Part shown: piece after piece, positions 9,277 through 33,650 of the stretch | Layout: the number at the start of each line of letters is the position of its first letter | Position numbering within the stretch: the stretch's first letter is position 1 | DNA from: Desulfovirgula sp. | Lineage (GTDB): Bacteria; Bacillota; Desulfotomaculia; Desulfotomaculales; Desulfocucumaceae | DNA length: 64,000 nt | Assembly: GCA_020725625.1 (NCBI GenBank) | Contig: DYET01000052.1 | Location: forward strand, 20,805 to 84,804 | Reading direction: 5' to 3' | Notes under the pieces: generated by a model | Told to the model about the DNA's origin: nothing | The model's database searches: none | The model's input: only the letters and a program-made list of their open reading frames with translations | Translations under genes and position numbers: made by a program

Positions 9277-10665
9277 TCAGTTATCCTCCGGGGGCAGCAC
9301 CTTGCCGGGATTCATGATTCCCCCGGGATCAAGGGCCCGTTTCATCCGGCGCATTATGTCCACCCCGGTTGCCCCCAACTCCCATTCCATGTATTTAACT
9401 TTATCCAGCCCAATCCCGTGCTCGCCGCTCAGCGTTCCGCCCATCTCCAAGGCGGCCCTGAACATTTCGTCTATGGCCTGCTTCACCCGCTGCATTTCAT
9501 TCTTGTCGCGCTCATCGGTAAGTATGATGGGGTGCATGTTGCCGTCCCCCGTGTGGCCCAGGATGGCCACCTTGATCCTGTATTTCCCCGTAATTTCAGC
9601 TATCTTTTTGACCATATCCGGAAGCATGCTTCGCGGTACGGTCACGTCTTCTACAATCAGGGTGGGGGCGCTGCGGGCCATAGAGGAGAACGCGGCCCTC
9701 CGGGCGGTCCAGATCTGGTTTGCCTCTTCCTCGGAGGCGGCCACCCTTATCTCCCGGGCCCCTTCCTTTCTGCAAACCTCTTCCACCTTTTTGATCTGGA
9801 CGGGAACGTCGCTTTCGCTGCCGTCCACCTCCACCAGAATGGCTGCGGCCGAGTTCACGGGAAGCCCGCAGGGCCGGGAGGCCTCGATCAGCCGCATTGC
9901 CTCCCTGTCCATGTATTCCAGGGTGGTGGGAATAATCCGGGCTGCGATTGTGGCGGAGACAGCCCGGGCGGCGTCCAAAATGTCGTCAAATATAGCCATC
10001 AGCGTGCGCTTGGCCTCGGGAAGAGGAATAAGGCGGAAAATTATTTCCGTAAAAATTCCGAGGGTCCCCTCGGATCCTGTTAGCAGCTTGGTTAAATCAT
10101 AGCCGGTGACATTTTTGACGGTTTTGCCGCCTACCTTCAGAACCCGGCCGTCCGGAAGGACCATTTTCAGTCCCAGCACATAGTCACGGGTCACTCCGTA
10201 CTTGAAGCCTCTGGGGCCGCCGGCGTTGGTGGCCACGTTCCCGCCCAGGGTCGACATGTTCAGGGCCTGCGGGTCGGGAGGGAAAAACAGCCCCAGTTCC
10301 TCTACCCGCCGCTGGAATTCCGCTGTAATCACACCCGGCTCCACCACTGCGCACAGGTTTGCGGTGTCAATCTCGATAATCCTGTTGAAGCGGTGCATGG
10401 CCACCACAATGCCCCCCCTGGCAGGGACCGAGGCGCCGCATATATTGGTGCCGCCGCCCCGGGGTATTACCGGGACTGCCGCTTTACTGGCCAGGGACAT
10501 GATCCGGGACACCTCTTCGGTTGTGCCGGGTATCACCACTACCCCGGGGAGGCAGCTGTTGAACGTGGAGTCGTAGGAATAGCATATTAAATCCTCTTTA
10601 TCGGTCAGCACGTGCTCTTTCCCCACAATGTTTTGCAGGGACCTGATCAAATTGCTGTCCGCCAT
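9277..10665 (-). CDS. FAD-linked oxidase (GlcD / D-lactate dehydrogenase family)
   Basis: 462 aa with a FAD_binding_4-type N-terminus (PRGGGTNICG) and the C-terminal GEHGIG motif. Its stop is 1 nt before the Fe-S subunit gene. Confidence 0.88.
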   Translation of the reverse strand: MADSNLIRSLQNIVGKEHVLTDKEDLICYSYDSTFNSCLPGVVVIPGTTEEVSRIMSLASKAAVPVIPRGGGTNICGASVPARGGIVVAMHRFNRIIEIDTANLCAVVEPGVITAEFQRRVEELGLFFPPDPQALNMSTLGGNVATNAGGPRGFKYGVTRDYVLGLKMVLPDGRVLKVGGKTVKNVTGYDLTKLLTGSEGTLGIFTEIIFRLIPLPEAKRTLMAIFDDILDAARAVSATIAARIIPTTLEYMDREAMRLIEASRPCGLPVNSAAAILVEVDGSESDVPVQIKKVEEVCRKEGAREIRVAASEEEANQIWTARRAAFSSMARSAPTLIVEDVTVPRSMLPDMVKKIAEITGKYRIKVAILGHTGDGNMHPIILTDERDKNEMQRVKQAIDEMFRAALEMGGTLSGEHGIGLDKVKYMEWELGATGVDIMRRMKRALDPGGIMNPGKVLPPEDN

Positions 10666-11428: not shown

Positions 11429-12466
11429 ATGCCCCCGACCGGTTTGGTATACGACGAGGCGTACCTGGATCACGACACCGGCGGGCACGTGGAAAGGGCG
11501 GACAGGCTAAGGGCGGTCATGGACGGAATAGTGAAGGCGGGTCTGATGGGCGGCATCGAAATGTTCAAGCCGCGGCCGGCCACTACCGGGGAATTGAGGC
11601 TGGTTCACGACAAACATTACATTGAGAAGGTGGAGGCTTTTTCCCGCCGCGGAGGGGGTTCCTTTATGGGAGGGAACAGAGGGTCCTCCCGGACCTGCGA
11701 GGTGGCAGTGCTGGCCGCCGGAGGCGCCATAACGGCAGTGGAAAGGGTCCTGGAAGGCAGGGTTGCGAACTGCTTCGCCCTGGTCAGGCCGCCGGGCCAC
11801 CATGCCAAGCCCTCCCTGGGACTGGGTTTTTGCTTTTTCAACAACCTGGCGGTTGCAGCCCGGTACGCCCTGAGTAAAGGCCTGCAAAGGGTGCTGGTGG
11901 TGGACTGGGACGCCCATCATGGTAACGGCATCGAGCGGATTTTCTACCGGGACCCCTCCGTACTTTACTTTTCGGTGCACAGGGCCCTGGGTTACCCGGG
12001 GACCGGGTGGCCCGAAGACATCGGAGAGGGCCCCGGTGAGGGATACAACATCAACGTGCCCCTGCCCCGGGGGGCCGGGGACGGGGATTACCTTGAAGTT
12101 TTCAGGCGCGTTCTGATTCCGGTGTGCAGCCAGTACCGGCCCGAGATGATCATGGTGGCCGCCGGGCAGGACTCCTACCGGGGGGACCCCATCGGCGGGA
12201 TGGGCTTGAGCGAAGAGGGCTTCGGCCGGCTGGGGGCGGTAGTGGCCGGATTGGCCCGGCAGGTGTGCGGCGGCCGGCTGGTGGCCACCCTCGAGGGAGG
12301 TTATGCCCTGGGTGGGCTGGCCCGGTGCACGGTGGAGATACTGCGGTCCTTCATGGCTCCGGGAGAAATTTTAGGCCGGGCGGAAGACTGCGTGCAAGTC
12401 GGGTCCGGAACTGCGCGGGTCGTTGGCCGGGTGGTTTCCAGGCTGGGAAAATACTGGCGCTTTTAG
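11429..12466 (+). CDS. Histone deacetylase-family protein (AcuC/acetoin-utilisation-like deacetylase)
   Basis: The MPPTGLVYDEAYLDHDTG start, RPPGHHA and DWDAHHGNG motifs are typical of class I/II HDAC-like amidohydrolases. ATG follows GTGGGGTGG. Confidence 0.85.
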   Translation: MPPTGLVYDEAYLDHDTGGHVERADRLRAVMDGIVKAGLMGGIEMFKPRPATTGELRLVHDKHYIEKVEAFSRRGGGSFMGGNRGSSRTCEVAVLAAGGAITAVERVLEGRVANCFALVRPPGHHAKPSLGLGFCFFNNLAVAARYALSKGLQRVLVVDWDAHHGNGIERIFYRDPSVLYFSVHRALGYPGTGWPEDIGEGPGEGYNINVPLPRGAGDGDYLEVFRRVLIPVCSQYRPEMIMVAAGQDSYRGDPIGGMGLSEEGFGRLGAVVAGLARQVCGGRLVATLEGGYALGGLARCTVEILRSFMAPGEILGRAEDCVQVGSGTARVVGRVVSRLGKYWRF

Positions 12467-27702: not shown

Positions 27703-27858
27703 TTGACATGTTGCACCCCCGGCATTATATTTAAACTTGGCAGGCAGATGCGGCGGCACGGCAATATGGGTCTACCTTTTGCGGGTAGGGCGATGGAGTT
27801 CGCCTAACGCTTAAGAGAGCTGATAACTCCTACCTTTTATGGTGGGAGTTTTGTTTTT
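27703..27858 (+). promoter_or_regulatory. Promoter (TTGACA-17-TATATT) and attenuator/riboswitch-like leader with an intrinsic terminator, upstream of the cation:proton antiporter
   Basis: TTGACA 27703-27708; TATATT 27726-27731. Terminator AACUCCUACC-uuuuau-GGUGGGAGUU + UUGUUUUU at 27825-27858. The alternative pairing of 27784-27800 (GGUAGG..GGAGUU) with 27825-27834 is antiterminator-like. CUACC 27772-27776 can sequester GGUAG 27784-27788. Confidence 0.6.
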
Positions 27859-27882: not shown

Positions 27883-29007
27883 ATGAGCATTTGGCTTGAC
27901 GCGGCCTTCTGGGTCGGGTTGGCCCTGGCGGCGTCTGTAATTTCGGTGCGCCTTGGAATCTCGGTGGCCATGGTGGAAATCATGGTGGGGGTTGTAGGCG
28001 GAAATTTTCTGGGCCTGCACACCACGCCCTGGGTCGATTTTCTGGCCGGCTTCGGCAGCATACTGCTGACCTTCCTGGCTGGCGCAGAGGTGGACCCGAA
28101 GGTGCTCAGGTCCAAATTCAAGGAAAGCGTCTCCATAGGCGCCATGTCGTTCCTCTTTCCCTACCTGGCCTGTTTTGCCTACGCTTATTACGTGGCCGGC
28201 TGGGATTTGCAGGCTTCCCAAATAGCCGGGATTGCTATGTCGACCACCTCGGTGGCCATCGTGTACGCCGTAATGGTGGAAACAGGTCTTAACTCCACAG
28301 AGCTGGGGAAGATCATCCTGGCCGCCTGTTTTATCACCGACCTGGGGACAGTTCTGGCCCTTGGCATCCTATTCGCCCACTTTAATTACTGGCTCTACAT
28401 ATTCATGGCGGTCACGGCGGCAGCCTTCTTCCTGGTACCCAGGGCGGCCGGGTCGCTGGTAAAATCCCTTGGCGGCCGGGTGAGCCAGGTTGAAGTCAAG
28501 TTTGTTTATTTTATCCTCTTCCTGCTTGGGGGACTGGCGATAAAAGCCAACAGCGAAGCCGTGCTTCCCGCCTACCTGCTGGGCCTGTCCCTGGCCACTC
28601 TGCTGGCCGGGGAAAAGGATGTGCTGTACCGGATGAGGACCACCGCCTTTGCCGTGCTGACGCCGTTTTTCTTCCTGAAGGCCGGCCTGCTCATATCCCT
28701 GAAGGCGCTTTGGATGGGTCTTTTGATCATCCTTGTCTTCCTCCTGGTCAAGGTGGCGGCCAAATTCACCGGGGTCCTGCCCCTTACAGTGTTTTTCAGG
28801 TTCGGCAGGAGGAATTCCATGTACACCACCCTGCTGATGTCCACCGGCCTTACCTTCGGCAGCATTTCTGCCATGTTCGGCCTGACCCACAACATCATCA
28901 ACCAGGCCCAGTACTCGGTCCTGGTCACGGCAGTTGTTCTCAGCGGCGTTATCCCGACTCTATTCGCCCAGGCCTTTTTCAGACCGGACGGGGGATCTCA
29001 AAATTGA
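27883..29007 (+). CDS. Cation:proton antiporter (Na+/H+ exchanger family, CPA1/CPA2-type, no RCK domain)
   Basis: 374 aa and highly hydrophobic, with about 11 TMS. GGAGGTGGG RBS. Confidence 0.8.
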   Translation: MSIWLDAAFWVGLALAASVISVRLGISVAMVEIMVGVVGGNFLGLHTTPWVDFLAGFGSILLTFLAGAEVDPKVLRSKFKESVSIGAMSFLFPYLACFAYAYYVAGWDLQASQIAGIAMSTTSVAIVYAVMVETGLNSTELGKIILAACFITDLGTVLALGILFAHFNYWLYIFMAVTAAAFFLVPRAAGSLVKSLGGRVSQVEVKFVYFILFLLGGLAIKANSEAVLPAYLLGLSLATLLAGEKDVLYRMRTTAFAVLTPFFFLKAGLLISLKALWMGLLIILVFLLVKVAAKFTGVLPLTVFFRFGRRNSMYTTLLMSTGLTFGSISAMFGLTHNIINQAQYSVLVTAVVLSGVIPTLFAQAFFRPDGGSQN

Positions 29008-30720: not shown

Positions 30721-30850
30721 TAAATTAGGCAAGAAATTTTGTCGCGGCCTGAAGGAGATCGTGCCCGGGCGTCGTAATATTATTAACAATAAAATATTTA
30801 CCACCTAAAATACATCCGCAAAAAGCGGAAATCAAAAAGGAGGTAATTTT

Positions 30851-31174
30851 ATGCCCACCATGAAGGAAGTCGTAGCGGGAATCACTACTACCCTGCAGAA
30901 CAATGCGGCCAAAAACAAGGGAGTAAACGGAGTGTTCCAGTTTGATATCAGCGGAGACGACCCCATGACCTTTTACTTCAAGCTTGACGACGGGGCCCCC
31001 AGTGTGGCAGAGGGCACGGCCGACAACCCCAGCATTACGATTTCCATGGCCGCACCTGATTTCAAGGACATGATCGAGGGCAAGCTGAACGGCACCATGG
31101 CCTTTATGAGCGGGAAACTGAAGCTCAAGGGAGACATGGGCCTGGCCATGAAGCTGGAGAGCCTGCTCAAGTAG
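30851..31174 (+). CDS. SCP-2 sterol-transfer-domain protein
   Basis: 107 aa. The C-terminal GKLNGTMAFMSGKLKLKGDMGLAMKL is the SCP2 signature. AAGGAGG RBS. Confidence 0.85.
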   Translation: MPTMKEVVAGITTTLQNNAAKNKGVNGVFQFDISGDDPMTFYFKLDDGAPSVAEGTADNPSITISMAAPDFKDMIEGKLNGTMAFMSGKLKLKGDMGLAMKLESLLK

Positions 31175-31192
31175 TCGGGACTGCAAAAAGAA

Positions 31193-31231
31193 GAGATGCG
31201 CCCGGAAGGAGACTCCGGGTGCATCTTTTTT
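31193..31231 (+). terminator. Intrinsic terminator after the SCP2 gene
   Basis: AGATGCGCCCGG-9nt-CCGGGTGCATCT (12 bp, one G.U) followed by TTTTTTT. Confidence 0.85.
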
Positions 31232-31395
31232 TCGGGGGTCCCGGCCTGCATGCGCGGCCCGGGCCGGAACCCGGGCACCGGTTGACGTATAACATAAAAT
31301 TTATGCAATGAAGGAATTTTAATTGTAATGGCAAAGTTATTAAAAAAATATATAATTGGAGATATACGGCCAGATTCAAAAGGGAGGGATTTTTG

Positions 31396-31716
31396 GTGGG
31401 TTTCACTTGTGACACTTGTGGAAAAGAGATCCAGACAATTGACGGGATCCTTTCCTGGACCAGGGAAGATCACCGGCTGGGAAATTTCAAGCTTACTCAC
31501 AAGGAATCTCTGGGAACGGGTTGCCAGCCTGCGAACAACAGGTACAGGGAACTTTACACTCTGACCCTGCCCACTGGCTTCATGGAGTTTATTCTATATC
31601 TGCTGGAGCGCTGGGAGGACGGGTTCACACTGACCGACCCCAAATCGCTGAGAAACGTGATGCGCCAGCTGAACCTGCACATCCACGAAAAGCTTCTGCT
31701 TATGGTTGAGGAATGA
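31396..31716 (+). CDS. Hypothetical protein (about 106 aa, N-terminal CxxC), orphan
   Basis: AGGGAGGG RBS 7 nt upstream of GTG 31396 (TTG 31393 is also in frame). Visibly lower GC than the flanking genes. I recognise no family. Confidence 0.55.
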   Translation: MGFTCDTCGKEIQTIDGILSWTREDHRLGNFKLTHKESLGTGCQPANNRYRELYTLTLPTGFMEFILYLLERWEDGFTLTDPKSLRNVMRQLNLHIHEKLLLMVEE

Positions 31717-31777
31717 ATTTATTTCCTGCCAAAAGAATAAATATTTGTACCTTGTTCGGTCAATAATAAACTTCGAA

Positions 31778-32163
31778 GGGTTCGTAATGGCCGAGCCCAG
31801 ACCGTTACAGGGTCAAAAGGGCTCTGTAACGGTCGGCCAAAGGTCAATACCGGGTCAGAAAGGCTCGGTATTGGCCGGCGGGAAGATCGGTGGATGTTCC
31901 AGCAGGCTCTGCAATAGTCTGAAAGATTATTGCAGGGTCACAAGGGATATTCACCGGTCGAGCTAAGACTGTTATGGTTGCCGGAAAAATTCAATTTCTT
32001 TTGAAAATGAGGTCTGCAGCAGTCGGGAGATTGCTGCAGGCTTCCTAGGTAGCCGTAACAGTCGAACAAAGGTCATTATGGGTGTCGTAACGGTCTATAA
32101 CGGCCGAAAGGTCGTTGTGGGCTGTGCAGATATCCGCAGTGGCCGTAGTGCAGGTCATTACGG
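31778..32163 (+). repeat. Array of related stem-loops: five uniform 15-bp hairpins plus 3-4 shorter or degenerate ones; candidate structured ncRNA or 3' UTR
   Basis: 15-bp hairpins at 31800-31834, 31842-31876, 31905-31939, 32010-32043 and 32091-32124. Shorter ones at 31778-31798, 31881-31900, 32053-32081 and 32143-32163. Details are in the findings. Confidence 0.7.
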
Positions 32164-32175
32164 GCTCACATAAAA

Positions 32176-32210
32176 AGAAATCCTCCCTTTGACGGGGAGG
32201 ATTTCTTTTG
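32176..32210. terminator. Strong intrinsic terminator (A-run upstream, so potentially bidirectional) closing the hairpin array
   Basis: AGAAATCCTCCC-tttgacg-GGGAGGATTTCT (12-bp perfect stem) followed by TTTG. Preceded by AAAAA. Confidence 0.85.
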
Positions 32211-32300
32211 TGAAGGCCAAAAAACACTTGATAGATTCCCGCCGATGTTGTAATTTTACTAGAGAAGCAATATCCGCTTCGGCCTGGAGTGTTAAACAAC

Positions 32301-33650
32301 ATGAAAATAACCATTATCGGGGCCGGCAAGGTGGGCATTGAAATTGCCCACAGGCTTTCCGAGGAAGGACACGACGTCATTGTCATCGACCGCGACGATT
32401 CCCAGTTGGCCAAAATCAGCGAGACCCTGGACGTGCTTACCGTCAAGGGGAACGGATCCAGTTCCCAGCTGCTGAAAGACATAGGCGTCAGCGACAGCGA
32501 CCTGCTGGTGGCGGTGACCGACAGTGACGAAATCAACATGATCGCCTGCATGACGGCCAAGAGGGTGGGCGTGGCCAAGACCATAGCCAGAATCAGGGAC
32601 CCGGATTATGTCCGGGATTTAATTATATCCAAGGAAGATCTGGGCATCGACCTGGTGATTAACCCCGATTACGCCGCCTCCCAGGAAATTGCCAGGCTTT
32701 TGACGCTGCGGCTGGCGGTGCACACCGAGCACTTTGCCAACGGCAGGGTGCAGATGGCCGAGTTGGCGGTGGAAGATACCAATACCCAGTTTGCCAACAG
32801 GAAAATCCAGGATATAGAGATACCCAGGTCCTGCCTGATCGTAGGCATATCCCGCAAGGGAGAGATGATCATCCCCGGCGGCAAGGACTGCATCAAGCCG
32901 AACGACACCCTTTACGTGCTGGGCAACGCCGAGTCGATAAACAAGGTCTGCACGAAGTTCAAGAGAAGGCGCCAGCGGGTGCAGAACGTCATGATCATGG
33001 GCGGGGGAAGGGCGGGCTTTTACCTGGCGGAAAAGCTCAGCAGTTCGGGGATCAAGGTCAAGGTAATCGAACAAAACCTGGCCAGGTGCCATGAACTGGC
33101 CAACCGTCTGACTGACGTACTGATTATCAAGGGCGACGGCACCGACGTGGACCTGCTGAAGAGGGAGGGCATCCACGAGACCGACAGCTTTGTAGCGGTT
33201 ACCGGATTTGACGAGGAAAACCTCCTGATGGCGCTCCTGGCCAAGCAACTGGGGGCCAAAAGGGTCATCGCCAAGGTCAGCCGCCCCAGCTACGCCCCCC
33301 TGGTGGAGCGGCTGGGCGTGGACGCCGCGATCAGCCCGCGCCTGATTACGATCAGCGAAATACTGAGGTTCATCAGGGGTGGCAGGCTTCTTTCCCTGGT
33401 ATTGTTACTTAACGAGCAGGCCGAGGTCATAGAGGTGATTGTTCAGCCGGGCAGCCGCATAGTGGGCCGGCCGCTGCGGGCTTCGGGCCTGCCCAAGGGC
33501 GTGATCATCGGCGCCATCAGCAGGGGGGACCAGGTAATTATACCCAAGGGCGACGAGGTCATCCGGGCTTTAGACCGCCTGGTGGTGTTCGCCCTGGGAC
33601 ACGTGGTCCATACTGTGGAGGCGCTTTGCAGCCGGGAGGAAGGCAGTTGA
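32301..33650 (+). CDS. trkA: Trk/Ktr potassium uptake system NAD-binding subunit TrkA (tandem RCK domains)
   Basis: MKITIIGAGKVG and a second IMGGGRAGFYLA Rossmann motif. The track ORF begins 4 codons earlier (GTG 32289). Confidence 0.9.
   Translation: MKITIIGAGKVGIEIAHRLSEEGHDVIVIDRDDSQLAKISETLDVLTVKGNGSSSQLLKDIGVSDSDLLVAVTDSDEINMIACMTAKRVGVAKTIARIRDPDYVRDLIISKEDLGIDLVINPDYAASQEIARLLTLRLAVHTEHFANGRVQMAELAVEDTNTQFANRKIQDIEIPRSCLIVGISRKGEMIIPGGKDCIKPNDTLYVLGNAESINKVCTKFKRRRQRVQNVMIMGGGRAGFYLAEKLSSSGIKVKVIEQNLARCHELANRLTDVLIIKGDGTDVDLLKREGIHETDSFVAVTGFDEENLLMALLAKQLGAKRVIAKVSRPSYAPLVERLGVDAAISPRLITISEILRFIRGGRLLSLVLLLNEQAEVIEVIVQPGSRIVGRPLRASGLPKGVIIGAISRGDQVIIPKGDEVIRALDRLVVFALGHVVHTVEALCSREEGS

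What the first reader, a model, noticed from the sequence alone, without database searches (positions are those of the whole stretch)
31778..32210. Array of five uniform 15-bp hairpins (plus degenerate copies) with compensatory stem changes and conserved A-rich/GNRA-like loops, ending at a strong terminator: candidate novel structured RNA
Between an orphan gene (ends 31716) and a 12-bp perfect terminator (32176-32210), the plus strand folds into a series of look-alike stem-loops.

Five hairpins are each exactly 15 bp with a 4-5 nt loop:
- H1 31800-31834: GACCGUUACAGGGUC-aaaag-GGCUCUGUAACGGUC.
- H2 31842-31876: GGUCAAUACCGGGUC-agaaa-GGCUCGGUAUUGGCC.
- H3 31905-31939: GGCUCUGCAAUAGUC-ugaaa-GAUUAUUGCAGGGUC.
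- H4 32010-32043: AGGUCUGCAGCAGUC-ggga-GAUUGCUGCAGGCUU.
- H6 32091-32124: CGGUCUAUAACGGCC-gaaa-GGUCGUUGUGGGCUG.

Evidence that the structure is selected:
- H1 and H2 have almost identical apical parts (GGUCARAAGGCU) but completely different, still perfectly paired, lower stems.
- H3 and H4 are identical except for AU to GC in one arm, matched by AU to GC in the other (two compensatory pairs).
- Shorter or decayed relatives lie at 31778-31798, 31881-31900, 32053-32081 and 32143-32163.
- Many pairs are G.U on the plus strand (four in H6, two or more in each of the others). These would be A.C mismatches on the minus strand, so the structure is RNA-level and plus-strand specific.
- A side effect is a GGYC tetramer recurring about every 10-11 nt across the array.

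What it could be:
- Conserved loops with variable stems are the opposite of REP- or MITE-type repeats. They are what one expects of reiterated protein-binding hairpins, as in sponge-type sRNAs, RNase III or dsRBD substrates, or the repeat RNA of type III TA systems.
- Nothing I know from Rfam matches. There is no constant direct repeat (so not CRISPR), and no RT, TnpB or toxin-like gene lies beside it.
Basis: seen in the sequence. Interest (0 to 1): 0.8.

Follow-up and report, generated by a model that had tools for sequence, protein, structure and literature searches.

The report
New five-armed spore-linked RNA gene
The hairpin array is one previously undescribed ~435-nt non-coding RNA gene that folds into a closed five-armed structure, is conserved with abundant compensatory mutations in dozens of spore-forming anaerobes, and has the promoter type used inside developing spores.

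Summary
The five hairpins are real, but they are not an array of independent units. Window 31777-32168 (+) folds into one closed five-way junction.

- **Fold:** MFE is -262 kcal/mol (z = -19.9). It is the only outlier in the 64-kb window, and 22% of its pairs are G.U, so it is specific to the plus strand.
- **Conservation:** I found about 35 homologues in at least 12 unrelated gene contexts. On 30 sequences, 97% of pair cells are paired and 99 of 151 pairs show double compensatory changes (0 of 500 shuffles reach this).
- **Conserved features:** The junction strands are invariant. So is a 4-bp wobble motif, GGUC/GGCU, that caps six helices. The loops of H1-H3 are not conserved.
- **Transcription unit:** Every copy has its own intrinsic terminator. 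At a fixed distance upstream lies G[T/A/C]ATA-N17-19-(G..)CATAnTA, the forespore sigmaF/sigmaG promoter type. Neighbouring genes are often sporulation genes.
- **Not a known family:** There is no Rfam, phage, plasmid or literature match. It is not linked to the upstream gene or to trkA.

Best reading: a new, independently transcribed, sporulation-specific large structured RNA, probably a very stable scaffold stored in spores. Its molecular function is unknown.

The parts
31739..31743 (+). Predicted -35 element of the RNA's own promoter. It reads AAATA here and aligns with GTATA/GAATA/GCATA in homologues. A GAATA also lies at 31735-31739, but its spacing to the -10 would be too long.
   Evidence: The upstream regions of 35 unique homologues were aligned on the -10 element. 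The window's -35 is one of the weaker ones (first base A instead of G).
31758..31768 (+). Predicted -10 element of forespore (sigmaF/sigmaG) type: GGTC-AATAATA. The 7-mer is 31762-31768, with GG at 31758-31759.
   Evidence: The 7-mer profile is [C/A]-A-[T]-A-[A/C]-T-A. A(+1), T(+5) and A(+6) are present in 35 of 35 sequences. G at -3 is present in 32 of 35. The element always ends 8-9 nt before P1. It has the same shape as mapped C. difficile forespore promoters (PMC3789822 Table S6; text).
31777..32168 (+). Core of the structured RNA: a five-way junction closed by P1, with about 151 base pairs. The predicted 5' end is around 31775-31778.
   Evidence: RNAfold, RNAalifold on 6 sequences, and pair counts on 6 and 30 sequences. 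nhmmer finds full-length homologues.
31778..31792 (+). P1 5' strand. It pairs with 32153-32167 (15 bp). The wobble motif G.U/G-C/U.G lies at 31779-31781 x 32164-32166.
   Evidence: helix 1: 99.1% of cells paired, and 8 of 15 pairs have double changes. G.U 3:469 is present in 29 of 29 sequences and U.G 5:467 in 30 of 30.
31795..31837 (+). Arm A. A 3-bp base (31795-31797 x 31835-31837) carries H1 (31800-31814 x 31820-31834). The loop is 31815-31819. GGUC/GGCU sits at the apex (31811-31814 x 31820-23).
   Evidence: helix 2: 99.4% paired, with 10 pairs showing double changes. The loop varies among homologues.
31842..31876 (+). Arm B, which is H2 (15 bp). The loop is 31857-31861. GGUC/GGCU sits at the apex (31853-31856 x 31862-31865).
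   Evidence: helix 3: 99.1% paired. G.U 82:108 and U.G 84:106 are each present in 30 of 30 sequences.
31877..31964 (+). Arm C. It has a 3-bp base (31877-79 x 31962-64), an outer helix (31885-31900 x 31944-31959) and H3 (31902-31919 x 31925-31941). GGCU/GGUC lies at the base of H3 (31905-08 x 31936-39).
   Evidence: helices 4-5: 33 pairs, 25 of them with double changes. The inner hairpin is absent in the short variants L122 and L102.
31967..32063 (+). Arm D. It has an outer helix (31967-31984 x 32045-32063), a hypervariable AU-rich internal loop (31985-32008) and H4 (32009-32024 x 32029-32044). The H4 loop is GGGA (GNRA). GGUC/GGCU lies at the base of H4 (32011-14 x 32039-42).
   Evidence: helices 6-7: 14 and 11 pairs with double changes. 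The internal loop ranges from about 24 to more than 80 nt among homologues.
32066..32149 (+). Arm E. It has a 2-bp base (32066-32067 x 32148-32149), an outer helix (32071-32086 x 32129-32144) and H6 (32090-32105 x 32110-32125). The H6 loop is GAAA. GGUC/GGCU lies at the base of H6 (32092-95 x 32120-23).
   Evidence: helices 8-10: 13 and 13 pairs with double changes. The GAAA loop is kept in most homologues.
32153..32167 (+). P1 3' strand.
32173..32213 (+). Intrinsic terminator and 3' hairpin of the RNA. The stem is a perfect 15 bp (32173-32187 x 32195-32209) followed by a U tract.
   Evidence: An equivalent hairpin plus U tract follows the core in nearly all full-length homologues. The linker and stem sequence (ACAUAGAAACC...) is partly conserved.

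Best explanation
Window 31777 to about 32212 (+) is a free-standing gene for a large (about 435 nt), very heavily base-paired non-coding RNA of a family not described before.

**Shown**
- The RNA forms a five-way junction closed by a 15-bp terminal helix. Its arms are built from 15-16-bp helical modules.
- Across about 30 divergent homologues the pairing is maintained by compensatory changes.
- The junction strands stay invariant. So do six copies of a 4-bp wobble duplex (5'-GGUC/5'-GGCU: G.U, G-C, U.G, C-G).
- The gene is single-copy per locus and moves between unrelated gene neighbourhoods with its own upstream promoter motif and its own terminator.

**Inferred from sequence**
- The promoter is of the forespore sigmaF/sigmaG type. 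The RNA would then be made in the developing endospore of these Desulfotomaculales-like and related Bacillota.
- The transcript starts at the first base of P1 and ends in a terminator hairpin. Both ends are therefore buried in helices.

**Inferred, weakest step**
- About 77% of nucleotides are paired and both termini are protected. This should make the RNA unusually resistant to exonucleases and to spontaneous cleavage.
- I propose it is a long-lived RNA deposited in the spore that acts as a scaffold. The invariant junction core and the six wobble motifs would serve as docking sites for a spore protein, for divalent metal ions, or for another copy of the RNA. I do not think it acts as a base-pairing regulator or as a cis-element of the flanking genes.

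**How the confidence breaks down**
- About 0.97 that it is a real, new structured ncRNA gene.
- About 0.7 that it has a sporulation or forespore promoter.
- About 0.3 for the scaffold function.
For: **Structure**
- Plus strand z = -19.9 and MFE -262 kcal/mol. Minus strand -161 kcal/mol.
- It is the only outlier in the window.
- On 6 syntenic homologues, 99.0% of pair cells are paired and 17 pairs show double changes (0 of 500 shuffles).
- On 30 homologues, 97.1% are paired, 99 of 151 pairs show double changes in 516 cells, and the covariation score is 0.439 against 0.218 for shuffles (0 of 500). Slid controls give 30-42% paired.
- The G.U pairs of the wobble motifs are kept in 26-30 of 30 sequences, while neighbouring pairs covary freely.

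**Non-coding**
- No reading frame stays open across the family.

**Independent gene**
- The metagenome scan found 33 loci, most with a full-length RNA.
- The flanking genes differ between loci and are often on the opposite strand.
- L115 carries two tandem copies, each with its own promoter and terminator.
- More distant members of the upstream protein family lack the RNA.

**Promoter**
- The motif lies at a fixed distance in 35 of 35 unique upstream regions.
- The strict pattern GHATR-N17-19-nAnAnTA is in the right place in 14 of 35, against 0.07 expected from shuffles. It occurs only once by chance in the whole window on both strands.
- It resembles experimentally mapped forespore promoters of C. 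difficile. It carries both discriminators described in PMC3789822: a G upstream of the -10 (sigmaF) and an A at its downstream end (sigmaG).

**Context**
- Neighbours in other loci include SpoVT, SpoIVA (3 loci), Spo0A, CotE, DUF1657 and a YpeB-like protein.
- Carriers are spore-former lineages. SpoIVA of L097 is 95% identical to that of a Desulfotomaculales MAG, and the organism of L006 (BICA1-7) encodes SpoIVA.
Against: - There are no expression data. The promoter assignment rests on sequence only.
- The window's own -35 (AAATA) and that of L002 (TAATA) are weak. Only 14 of 35 copies match a strict -35.
- The spacer between the -35 pentamer and the -10 7-mer is mostly 18 nt here. It is 16-18 nt in the C. 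difficile promoters I could read. The B. subtilis consensus is quoted from memory.
- Mother-cell sigmaE promoters share CATA in the -10, so a mother-cell reading is not fully excluded.
- The attempted internal control was inconclusive: the spoVT promoter in L092 gave no clean match, and no SASP gene lies in any held sequence.
- The enrichment of sporulation genes among neighbours was not tested statistically.
- No partner protein is indicated by gene neighbourhood.
- The scaffold and longevity function is inference from architecture only.
- All metagenome homologues were selected to contain one 21-base junction pattern. That junction's invariance is therefore circular, and the family's true breadth is unknown.
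Confidence: 0.6

Rival explanations
1. Loop-presenting sponge or decoy. The RNA would be a string of equivalent hairpins whose loops titrate an RNA-binding protein, as CsrB/RsmZ do, or whose units resemble type III antitoxin repeats.
For: The arms are paralogous 15-bp modules. The loops are A-rich or GNRA in the window. Multivalency is evident from the six repeated motifs.
Against: The loops of H1-H3 are not conserved in sequence or length. The hairpins are locked into one junction whose single-stranded linkers are invariant. There are no direct repeats and no toxin gene. No GGA-type loop motif is present.
Confidence: 0.08
2. RNA-only machine or assembly. The conserved junction core would be a catalytic or ligand-binding centre, or the RNA would self-assemble into homo-oligomers through its GNRA loops and wobble-motif helices, as recently shown for ROOL, GOLLD and OLE.
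For: The junction strands are invariant and the GAAA/GNRA loops on arms E and D are conserved. Six conserved helical motifs could serve as tetraloop or helix-packing receptors. The size and degree of order are comparable with 'ornate' RNAs (literature: PMC12286853, listed).
Against: There is no similarity to any of those families in Rfam. No pseudoknot or long-range tertiary covariation was identified. Near-perfect long helices are unusual for ribozymes.
Confidence: 0.15
3. Precursor of small RNAs, or an RNase III substrate. The long perfect duplexes (up to about 35 bp per arm) would be cut by a double-strand-specific nuclease to release short RNAs, or would titrate that nuclease.
For: The arms combine two stacked 15-18-bp helices, long enough for RNase III. 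The helix lengths are uniform.
Against: Selection acts on pairing and on helix-end motifs, not on the sequence of any stretch that could act as a guide. The only long unpaired stretch is hypervariable. No nuclease gene is associated.
Confidence: 0.07
4. Sporulation-independent or mother-cell RNA. The upstream motif would be read by sigmaE/sigmaK or by a lineage-specific sigma factor, and the link to the forespore would be wrong.
For: The -10 begins with CATA, as mother-cell promoters do. The -35 is degenerate in many copies. The internal control was inconclusive.
Against: T(+5) and A(+6) are invariant and position +7 is variable. This fits cAtnnTA and not the mother-cell CATAnnnT boxes quoted. 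G at -3 is present in 32 of 35. The -35 is G[TAC]ATA rather than the bare ATA or AC of mother-cell promoters.
Confidence: 0.12
5. A cis-acting element of a flanking gene: a long 3'UTR of the 107-aa gene, or a leader or riboswitch of trkA-trkH.
For: It lies between these genes in the window and in ten close relatives. No sigmaA-type promoter was found between the upstream gene and P1.
Against: A strong terminator and a separate conserved promoter-like block precede trkA. Most homologues have neither gene nearby. Relatives of the 107-aa gene lack the RNA. There is no riboswitch hit.
Confidence: 0.02
6. A selfish repeat: a REP/MITE-like hairpin cluster or the remnant of a mobile element.
For: It consists of look-alike hairpins and has a patchy genomic position.
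Against: There is a single copy in 64 kb. No other copies lie in about 1 Mb of related loci. It is syntenic across relatives at 82-86% identity with compensatory evolution. No terminal repeats, transposase, phage or plasmid matches were found.
Confidence: 0.01

Closest known systems
CsfG (sigmaF/sigmaG-dependent forespore sRNA conserved in endospore formers; Marchais et al. 2011, cited in PMC9147052)
   Same: It is an independent non-coding gene in endospore-forming Bacillota, with a forespore-type promoter, an unknown target, and structure-level conservation.
   Different: From memory, CsfG is a small RNA (well under 200 nt) with pyrimidine-rich loop motifs, and it is widespread in Bacilli and Clostridia. 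The RNA here has a core of about 390 nt with a five-way junction, variable loops and wobble-capped helices, and is so far seen in Desulfotomaculales-like and Dethiobacter-related lineages. No model of CsfG was available, so homology could not be tested.
S547 / Bvs196 of Bacillus (294-nt sporulation sRNA under sigmaF/sigmaG; PMC9147052)
   Same: It is a mid-sized, self-terminated RNA expressed in the forespore. Its stems are reported as conserved and its loops as variable.
   Different: It is restricted to Bacillus and is much less structured (reported MFE -82 kcal/mol for 294 nt, against -262 for 476 nt here). No sequence relation is evident, and its architecture is different.
raiA motif RNA (large structured ncRNA of Bacillota and Actinomycetota; disruption affects sporulation; PMC10861870 and PMC11706538, listed)
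   Same: It is a large, conserved, structured RNA of unknown biochemical function in Bacillota, with a link to sporulation.
   Different: The Rfam model gives no hit here. raiA has pseudoknotted multi-stem architecture rather than long perfect helices, and it is far more widespread.
Ornate large RNAs OLE, ROOL and GOLLD (PMC12286853)
   Same: They are comparable in size class, degree of order and invariant core nucleotides. Higher-order assembly is a possibility for all of them.
   Different: There is no Rfam hit. Those RNAs are richer in irregular motifs and tertiary contacts. This one is dominated by regular A-form helices of uniform length, with a repeated 4-bp wobble motif and a sporulation-type promoter.
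6S RNA
   Same: It is a highly paired, stable, abundant-type regulatory RNA with both ends in a closing helix.
   Different: 6S is a single rod with a central bubble that mimics an open promoter. This RNA has five arms and no such bubble, and it gives no Rfam 6S hit.

Membership tests
Any Rfam 15 family (4227 models, including 6S, OLE, raiA, ROOL, GOLLD, HEARO and riboswitches) | A covariance-model score at or above the family's gathering threshold | tested here: not met
   The only gathering-level hit in the window is the fluoride riboswitch at 27780-27839. With E up to 10 on 31400-32500, only weak terminator-driven hits appear, all far below threshold.
REP / MITE-type repeats | Many dispersed near-identical copies in the same genome | tested here: not met
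   There is one copy in the 64-kb window. No extra copies lie in the related loci. Whole genomes could not be scanned.
REP / MITE-type repeats | No selection for a specific higher-order RNA structure across species | tested here: not met
   99 of 151 pairs show compensatory changes and the junctions are invariant.
CRISPR array | A constant direct repeat alternating with unique spacers | tested here: not met
   The direct-repeat families are only 60-87% alike and are irregularly spaced.
Type III toxin-antitoxin (ToxI-like) repeat RNA | Tandem direct repeats of about 36 nt next to an endoribonuclease toxin gene | tested here: not met
   There are no tandem direct repeats. The neighbours are a 107-aa protein with no Pfam match and trkA/trkH. 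The contexts of homologues vary.
Riboswitch or leader of the downstream gene | A conserved position in the 5' leader of one class of genes, with an expression platform coupled to that gene | tested here: not met
   A terminator and then a separate promoter-like block precede trkA. Homologues sit in at least 12 different contexts, often on the strand opposite to their neighbours.
Forespore (sigmaF/sigmaG) regulon | A promoter with -35 G[T/A/C]ATA and -10 (G..)cAtnnTA at the proper spacing upstream of the transcript start | tested here: met
   The -10 profile is conserved in 35 of 35 copies at a fixed distance from P1, with G at -3 in 32 of 35. The strict two-box pattern occurs in 14 of 35, against 0.07 expected. 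It has the same form as mapped C. difficile promoters. This is a sequence-level test only.
Forespore (sigmaF/sigmaG) regulon | Transcription dependent on sigF/sigG and confined to the forespore | not testable with these tools
   This needs RNA-seq, reporters or mutants.
CsfG family | Sequence and structure homology to CsfG | not testable with these tools
   No CsfG model or sequence was available. The primary paper is not held. The size and architecture recalled from memory differ.
Independent Rho-independent-terminated sRNA gene | Its own promoter and its own intrinsic terminator, moving together with the RNA between loci | tested here: met
   The promoter motif and the terminator hairpin plus U tract flank the core in nearly all full-length homologues, whatever the neighbours.

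The most novel reading that the evidence does not exclude
This is a new class of large 'ornate' RNA dedicated to the endospore. It would be made in the forespore and built to survive dormancy, with ends sealed in helices and about 77% of nucleotides paired. Its six invariant GGUC/GGCU wobble motifs and its invariant five-way junction would dock a spore-specific partner: a protein, Ca2+/Mn2+-type ions, or further copies of the RNA. That would make it a spore-stored ribonucleoprotein or RNA assembly with a role in dormancy, resistance or germination that no known RNA fills.
Probability: 0.3. Interest if true: 0.85.

Novelty: new variant of a known kind. Interest (0 to 1): 0.75.

Why it matters
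- **Rarity.** Large, highly ordered bacterial RNAs with strong covariation support are rare, and several of them (OLE, raiA, ROOL, GOLLD) have opened new biology.
- **Testable prediction.** This one comes with an unusually specific prediction about when and where it is made, because the sporulation-type promoter travels with it. Very few non-coding RNAs are tied to endospore development, and none of this size or regularity.
- **Structural interest.** The modular design is 15-16-bp helices, each capped by the same G.U/G-C/U.G motif about one helical turn from a second semi-conserved G.U-containing 4-bp motif. This offers a clean system for studying recognition of wobble motifs in A-form RNA, and perhaps RNA survival over long dormancy.
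- **Annotation.** A CM built from these sequences would let the family be annotated in Desulfotomaculales and related subsurface spore-formers.

Tried and rejected
**Known families and mobile elements**
- Rfam at gathering threshold and at E up to 10 gave nothing relevant.
- No match in viral contigs with two patterns, in the GenBank phage collection, or in PLSDB plasmids.
- REP/MITE reading rejected: the window-wide fold scan and nhmmer over all held loci found no extra copies.

**Coding potential**
- No frame is open across the family.

**Link to the flanking genes**
- The 107-aa gene has 31 protein clusters.
- Its more distant members (Desulfocucumis palustris, Desulfotomaculum copahuensis and others) are followed by a convergent gene (an aminotransferase in most loci) with no RNA.
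- trkA loci of Desulfoscipio geothermicus and Pelotomaculum terephthalicicum have no RNA.

**Search for a cultured carrier**
- I tried via spoIVA synteny. Desulforamulus aquiferis and Desulfurispora thermophila have no RNA next to spoIVA.

**Internal promoter controls**
- No SASP gene lies in any held sequence.
- The spoVT upstream region in L092 gave no clean match.

**Other checks**
- GGYC periodicity as a density signal is not exceptional.
- The exact-protein look-ups for the window's TrkA and the 107-aa protein were not on record, so the source genome was not identified beyond 'Peptococcaceae/Desulfotomaculales-like'.
- The literature searches found no description of this RNA. One search for consensus strings was useless.
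- I looked by eye for an 11-nt GAAA receptor in arm D. The UAUGG there is in a regular helix, so it was rejected.
Full report
**1. Observation**

RNAfold of 31740-32215 recovers each as a 15-16-bp stem.

- The plus strand folds at -262.4 kcal/mol. Dinucleotide shuffles average -143 +/- 6, so z = -19.9. The minus strand reaches only -161.2 kcal/mol.
- In the window's own fold, 34 of 151 pairs are G.U. This explains the strand asymmetry.
- I ran a 300-nt sliding fold over all 64 kb. This is the only outlier, at -7.2 SD after regression on G+C, and nothing similar occurs elsewhere in the window.
- The terminator is a perfect 15-bp stem.

**2. The object is one closed structure, not an array**

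  - 31778-31792 pairs with 32153-32167. This is the closing helix P1.
  - 31885-31900 pairs with 31944-31959, below H3.
  - 31967-31984 pairs with 32045-32063, below H4.
  - 32071-32086 pairs with 32129-32144, below H6.
- The result is a five-way junction with arms A (H1), B (H2), C (outer helix + H3), D (outer helix + large internal loop + H4) and E (outer helix + H6).
- GGYC density as such is ordinary for this 58% G+C window.

**3. Close relatives**

- A scan of one genome per species with the downstream TrkA returned Peptococcaceae/Bacillota MAGs with 82-88% identical TrkA.
- Five of them (L001, L002, L004, L005, L006) have the region conserved at 82-86% nucleotide identity in the same place.
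- On that six-sequence alignment, RNAalifold gives the same five-way junction. The pair count gives 99.0% of cells paired and 17 pairs with changes on both sides. No shuffle out of 500 reaches either value, and slid controls give 29-42% paired.
- The loops of H1, H2 and H3 already differ among these close relatives. The H4 loop stays GNRA and the H6 loop stays GAAA.

**4. The flanking genes are not partners**

- The upstream 107-aa ORF is a real gene. It is 83-92% identical in the five relatives, belongs to a small family of 31 clusters and has no Pfam match.
- In more distant members of that family the gene is followed within about 50-270 nt by a convergent gene, an aminotransferase in most loci. 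This holds for Desulfocucumis palustris, Desulfotomaculum copahuensis and several MAGs.
- Neither nhmmer nor a fold scan finds the RNA in those loci.
- The trkA loci of Desulfoscipio geothermicus and Pelotomaculum terephthalicicum also lack it.
- Downstream of the terminator, a conserved promoter-like block precedes trkA.

**5. A wider family**

- A metagenome scan with one invariant junction string (GTCGGCCAAAGGTNNNTANCGGGTC) returned 33 loci.
- A profile of the core finds full-length matches in most of them, with scores from 457 down to about 75 bits. L115 carries two tandem copies.
- Only about ten of these loci share the window's neighbourhood. The rest lie in at least a dozen different contexts, often with the RNA on the strand opposite to both neighbours.
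- Pfam scans of the neighbours found the following:
  - SpoVT with a ThiS-like gene
  - SpoIVA (three loci)
  - Spo0A
  - CotE
  - DUF1657
  - a YpeB/SLH protein
  - signal peptidase II with NAGPA
  - an Mrr-like nuclease
  - a NiFeSe hydrogenase
  - MatE
  - a flavoprotein
- SpoIVA next to L097 is 95% identical to that of a 'Desulfotomaculales bacterium' MAG.
- MurJ next to the shortest variant (L122) is closest, among named organisms, to Dethiobacter alkaliphilus at 56%. The family therefore reaches beyond one order.
- There are no matches in viral contigs, phage genomes or plasmids.

**6. Covariation on 30 sequences** (alignment A3; counts)

| Measure | Observed | Control |
|---|---|---|
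| Pair cells paired (151 pairs) | 97.1% | 30-42% when partners are slid |
| Pairs with changes on both sides | 99 (516 cells) | 54 +/- 4 in shuffles, 0 of 500 reach it |
| Covariation score | 0.439 | 0.218 in shuffles |

- Every helix of five or more pairs has 4 to 25 compensating pairs.
- No reading frame is open across the family.
- This is as strong as comparative support for an RNA structure gets at this depth.

**7. What is conserved**

- *Junction strands.* GCCGAGCC[A/C]AGA, TCGAGCNAAGA and GTCGAGCAAAGGT are invariant or nearly so. GGCCAAAGGT is also invariant, but it was part of the search pattern, so its invariance is circular.
- *A 4-bp wobble duplex.* 5'-GGUC-3'/5'-GGCU-3' (G.U, G-C, U.G, C-G) occurs six times.
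  - It lies at the outer end of P1, at the apex of H1 and H2, and at the base of H3, H4 and H6.
  - Its G.U pairs are present in 26-30 of 30 sequences, while adjacent pairs covary freely.
  - A second semi-conserved G.U-containing 4-bp motif closes the other end of each 15-16-bp module, about one A-form turn away. It reads GGCC/GGUC in P1 and H6 and AGUC/GAUU in H3 and H4.
- *Variable parts.* These are the loops of H1-H3, the distal parts of arms C and D (absent in L122 and L102), and the AU-rich internal loop of arm D. That loop is 31985-32008 in the window and ranges from about 24 to more than 80 nt.

**8. Transcription unit**

- Nearly all full-length homologues end in a hairpin plus U tract. 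The linker and stem sequence (ACAUAGAAACC...) is partly conserved.
- Upstream, all 35 unique copies carry a two-box motif at a fixed distance from P1.
  - The 7-mer [C/A]A[T]A[A/C]TA has A(+1), T(+5) and A(+6) in 35 of 35. It ends 8-9 nt before the first base of P1.
  - G at -3 is present in 32 of 35.
  - About 18 nt further upstream lies G[T/A/C]ATA (GTATA, GAATA, GCATA) or a one-mismatch version.
  - The strict pattern sits in the right place in 14 of 35 copies, against 0.07 expected from shuffles. It occurs once in the whole window on both strands.
- This is the forespore promoter type.
  - Saujet et al. [quoted passage not shown] A G upstream of the -10 marks sigmaF promoters, and an A at its downstream end marks sigmaG promoters.
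  - Their Table S6 lists mapped promoters such as TGTATAAAATTTAGAT-AACTTCAATAATA and TGTATATTTTCTTAAC-AATGGTAAAAATAA for spoVT.
  - The RNA promoters carry both marks, as spoVT does.
  - From memory, the motif also fits the B. subtilis consensus GHATR-N18-CATXHTA (sigmaG) and GywTA-N15-GgnrAnAnTw (sigmaF).
  - Mother-cell -10 boxes quoted in the same paper (CATATTAT, CATATAAT) need a T at position +7. That position is variable here.
- In the window the elements are AAATA (31739-31743; weak) and GGTC-AATAATA (31758-31768). This predicts a start at about 31775-31778, the first base of P1.
- The scan for sigmaA-type promoters finds none between the upstream gene and P1.

**9. Interpretation**

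- *Shown.* This is a new, free-standing, structured non-coding RNA gene family.
- *Inferred with fair confidence (about 0.7).* It is transcribed by a forespore sigma factor. The frequent sporulation-gene neighbours agree with this, but I did not test them statistically.
- *Inferred weakly (about 0.3).* The function.
  - The transcript would begin and end inside helices, and about 77% of its nucleotides are paired. Such an RNA should resist 5' and 3' exonucleases. It should also resist spontaneous in-line cleavage, which mainly hits flexible single strands. These properties suit a molecule that must persist in a dormant spore.
  - Invariant junction strands argue for a defined three-dimensional core.
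  - Six invariant wobble motifs on regularly sized helices argue for multivalent recognition by a protein, by metal ions, or by other RNA helices or GNRA loops.
  - I therefore favour a stable spore-stored scaffold or RNP over a base-pairing regulator, because the only long unpaired segment is hypervariable.
  - I also favour it over a loop-presenting sponge (the loops are not conserved) and over a cis-element of the neighbours (refuted by the distribution).

**10. Caveats**

- There are no expression data, and no cultured carrier was identified.
- Two attempts via spoIVA synteny failed.
- The metagenome set is biased by the search string.
- The window's own -35 is weak.
- The internal promoter controls were inconclusive.
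- The primary CsfG paper was not available, so non-identity with CsfG rests on the remembered size and architecture and on the absence of any Rfam hit.

**11. Novelty**

- There is no Rfam family and no paper in the searchable library.
- The kind of thing is known: a sporulation-controlled ncRNA, and a large ornate bacterial RNA.
- The family and its architecture are not known: a five-way junction of uniform wobble-capped helices.

Noticed in passing
window 27780-27839 (+), with ORF 27883-29007 (+): A fluoride riboswitch (Rfam RF01734, 44.3 bits, above gathering) lies directly upstream of a Na+/H+-exchanger-family gene rather than a CrcB gene.
   Followed up: partly
window 31393-31716 (+): The 107-aa 'orphan' is a real conserved protein with an N-terminal CxxC (FTCDTCGKE) and no Pfam match. 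It belongs to a small family of 31 clusters in Desulfotomaculales-like Bacillota. It is usually found downstream of a metallophosphoesterase and, in most relatives, a 284-296-aa minus-strand gene with no Pfam match. Its function is unknown.
   Followed up: partly
window 32225-32256 (+): A promoter-like block downstream of the RNA terminator and upstream of trkA (CTTGAT...TGTTGTAATTTTAC) is conserved in most of the close relatives. It is probably the trkA-trkH promoter. No c-di-AMP riboswitch is present there.
   Followed up: no
L115 395-786 and 964-1354: Two tandem copies of the RNA gene lie on one metagenome contig. Each has its own promoter motif and terminator, and the copies have diverged from each other (351 and 310 bits).
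   Followed up: partly
window 31750-31761 and the same position in L001, L002, L004-L006, L095, L123: In close relatives the promoter spacer is a GC-rich near-palindrome (CCGGGCYCGG, for example CCCGGGCCCGG in L001). In the window it has decayed to CCTTGTTCGG. It could be an operator for a regulator or simply lineage-specific sequence. It is also complementary to GGCCGAGCCC at the start of the RNA.
   Followed up: no
window 31985-32008 (internal loop of arm D) and the equivalent columns 231-300 of alignment A3: This AU-rich segment is hypervariable in sequence and in length (about 24 to more than 80 nt). In some homologues (L118, L107, L092) it appears to hold extra hairpins. It behaves like an insertion-tolerant site.
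   Followed up: no
L122 2934-3404 (-), L102 7149-7619 (-): These are shorter variants of the RNA. They lack H3 and H4 but keep P1, H1, H2, the junction strands and arm E. They lie next to murJ in a Dethiobacter-related lineage.
   Followed up: partly
L008 (Desulfoscipio geothermicus) about 10200-10600 and 11800-12300: Two regions fold unusually well on both strands (about -4 SD each) a few kb downstream of trkA. I did not examine them. The symmetric signal suggests inverted repeats or RNA genes.
   Followed up: no
window 30725-31186 (-) and 30973-31500 (-): These long minus-strand ORFs overlap the SCP2 gene and the 107-aa gene and have no Pfam match. They are probably spurious, although in relatives a 284-296-aa minus-strand gene with no Pfam match occupies the corresponding position.
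   Followed up: no
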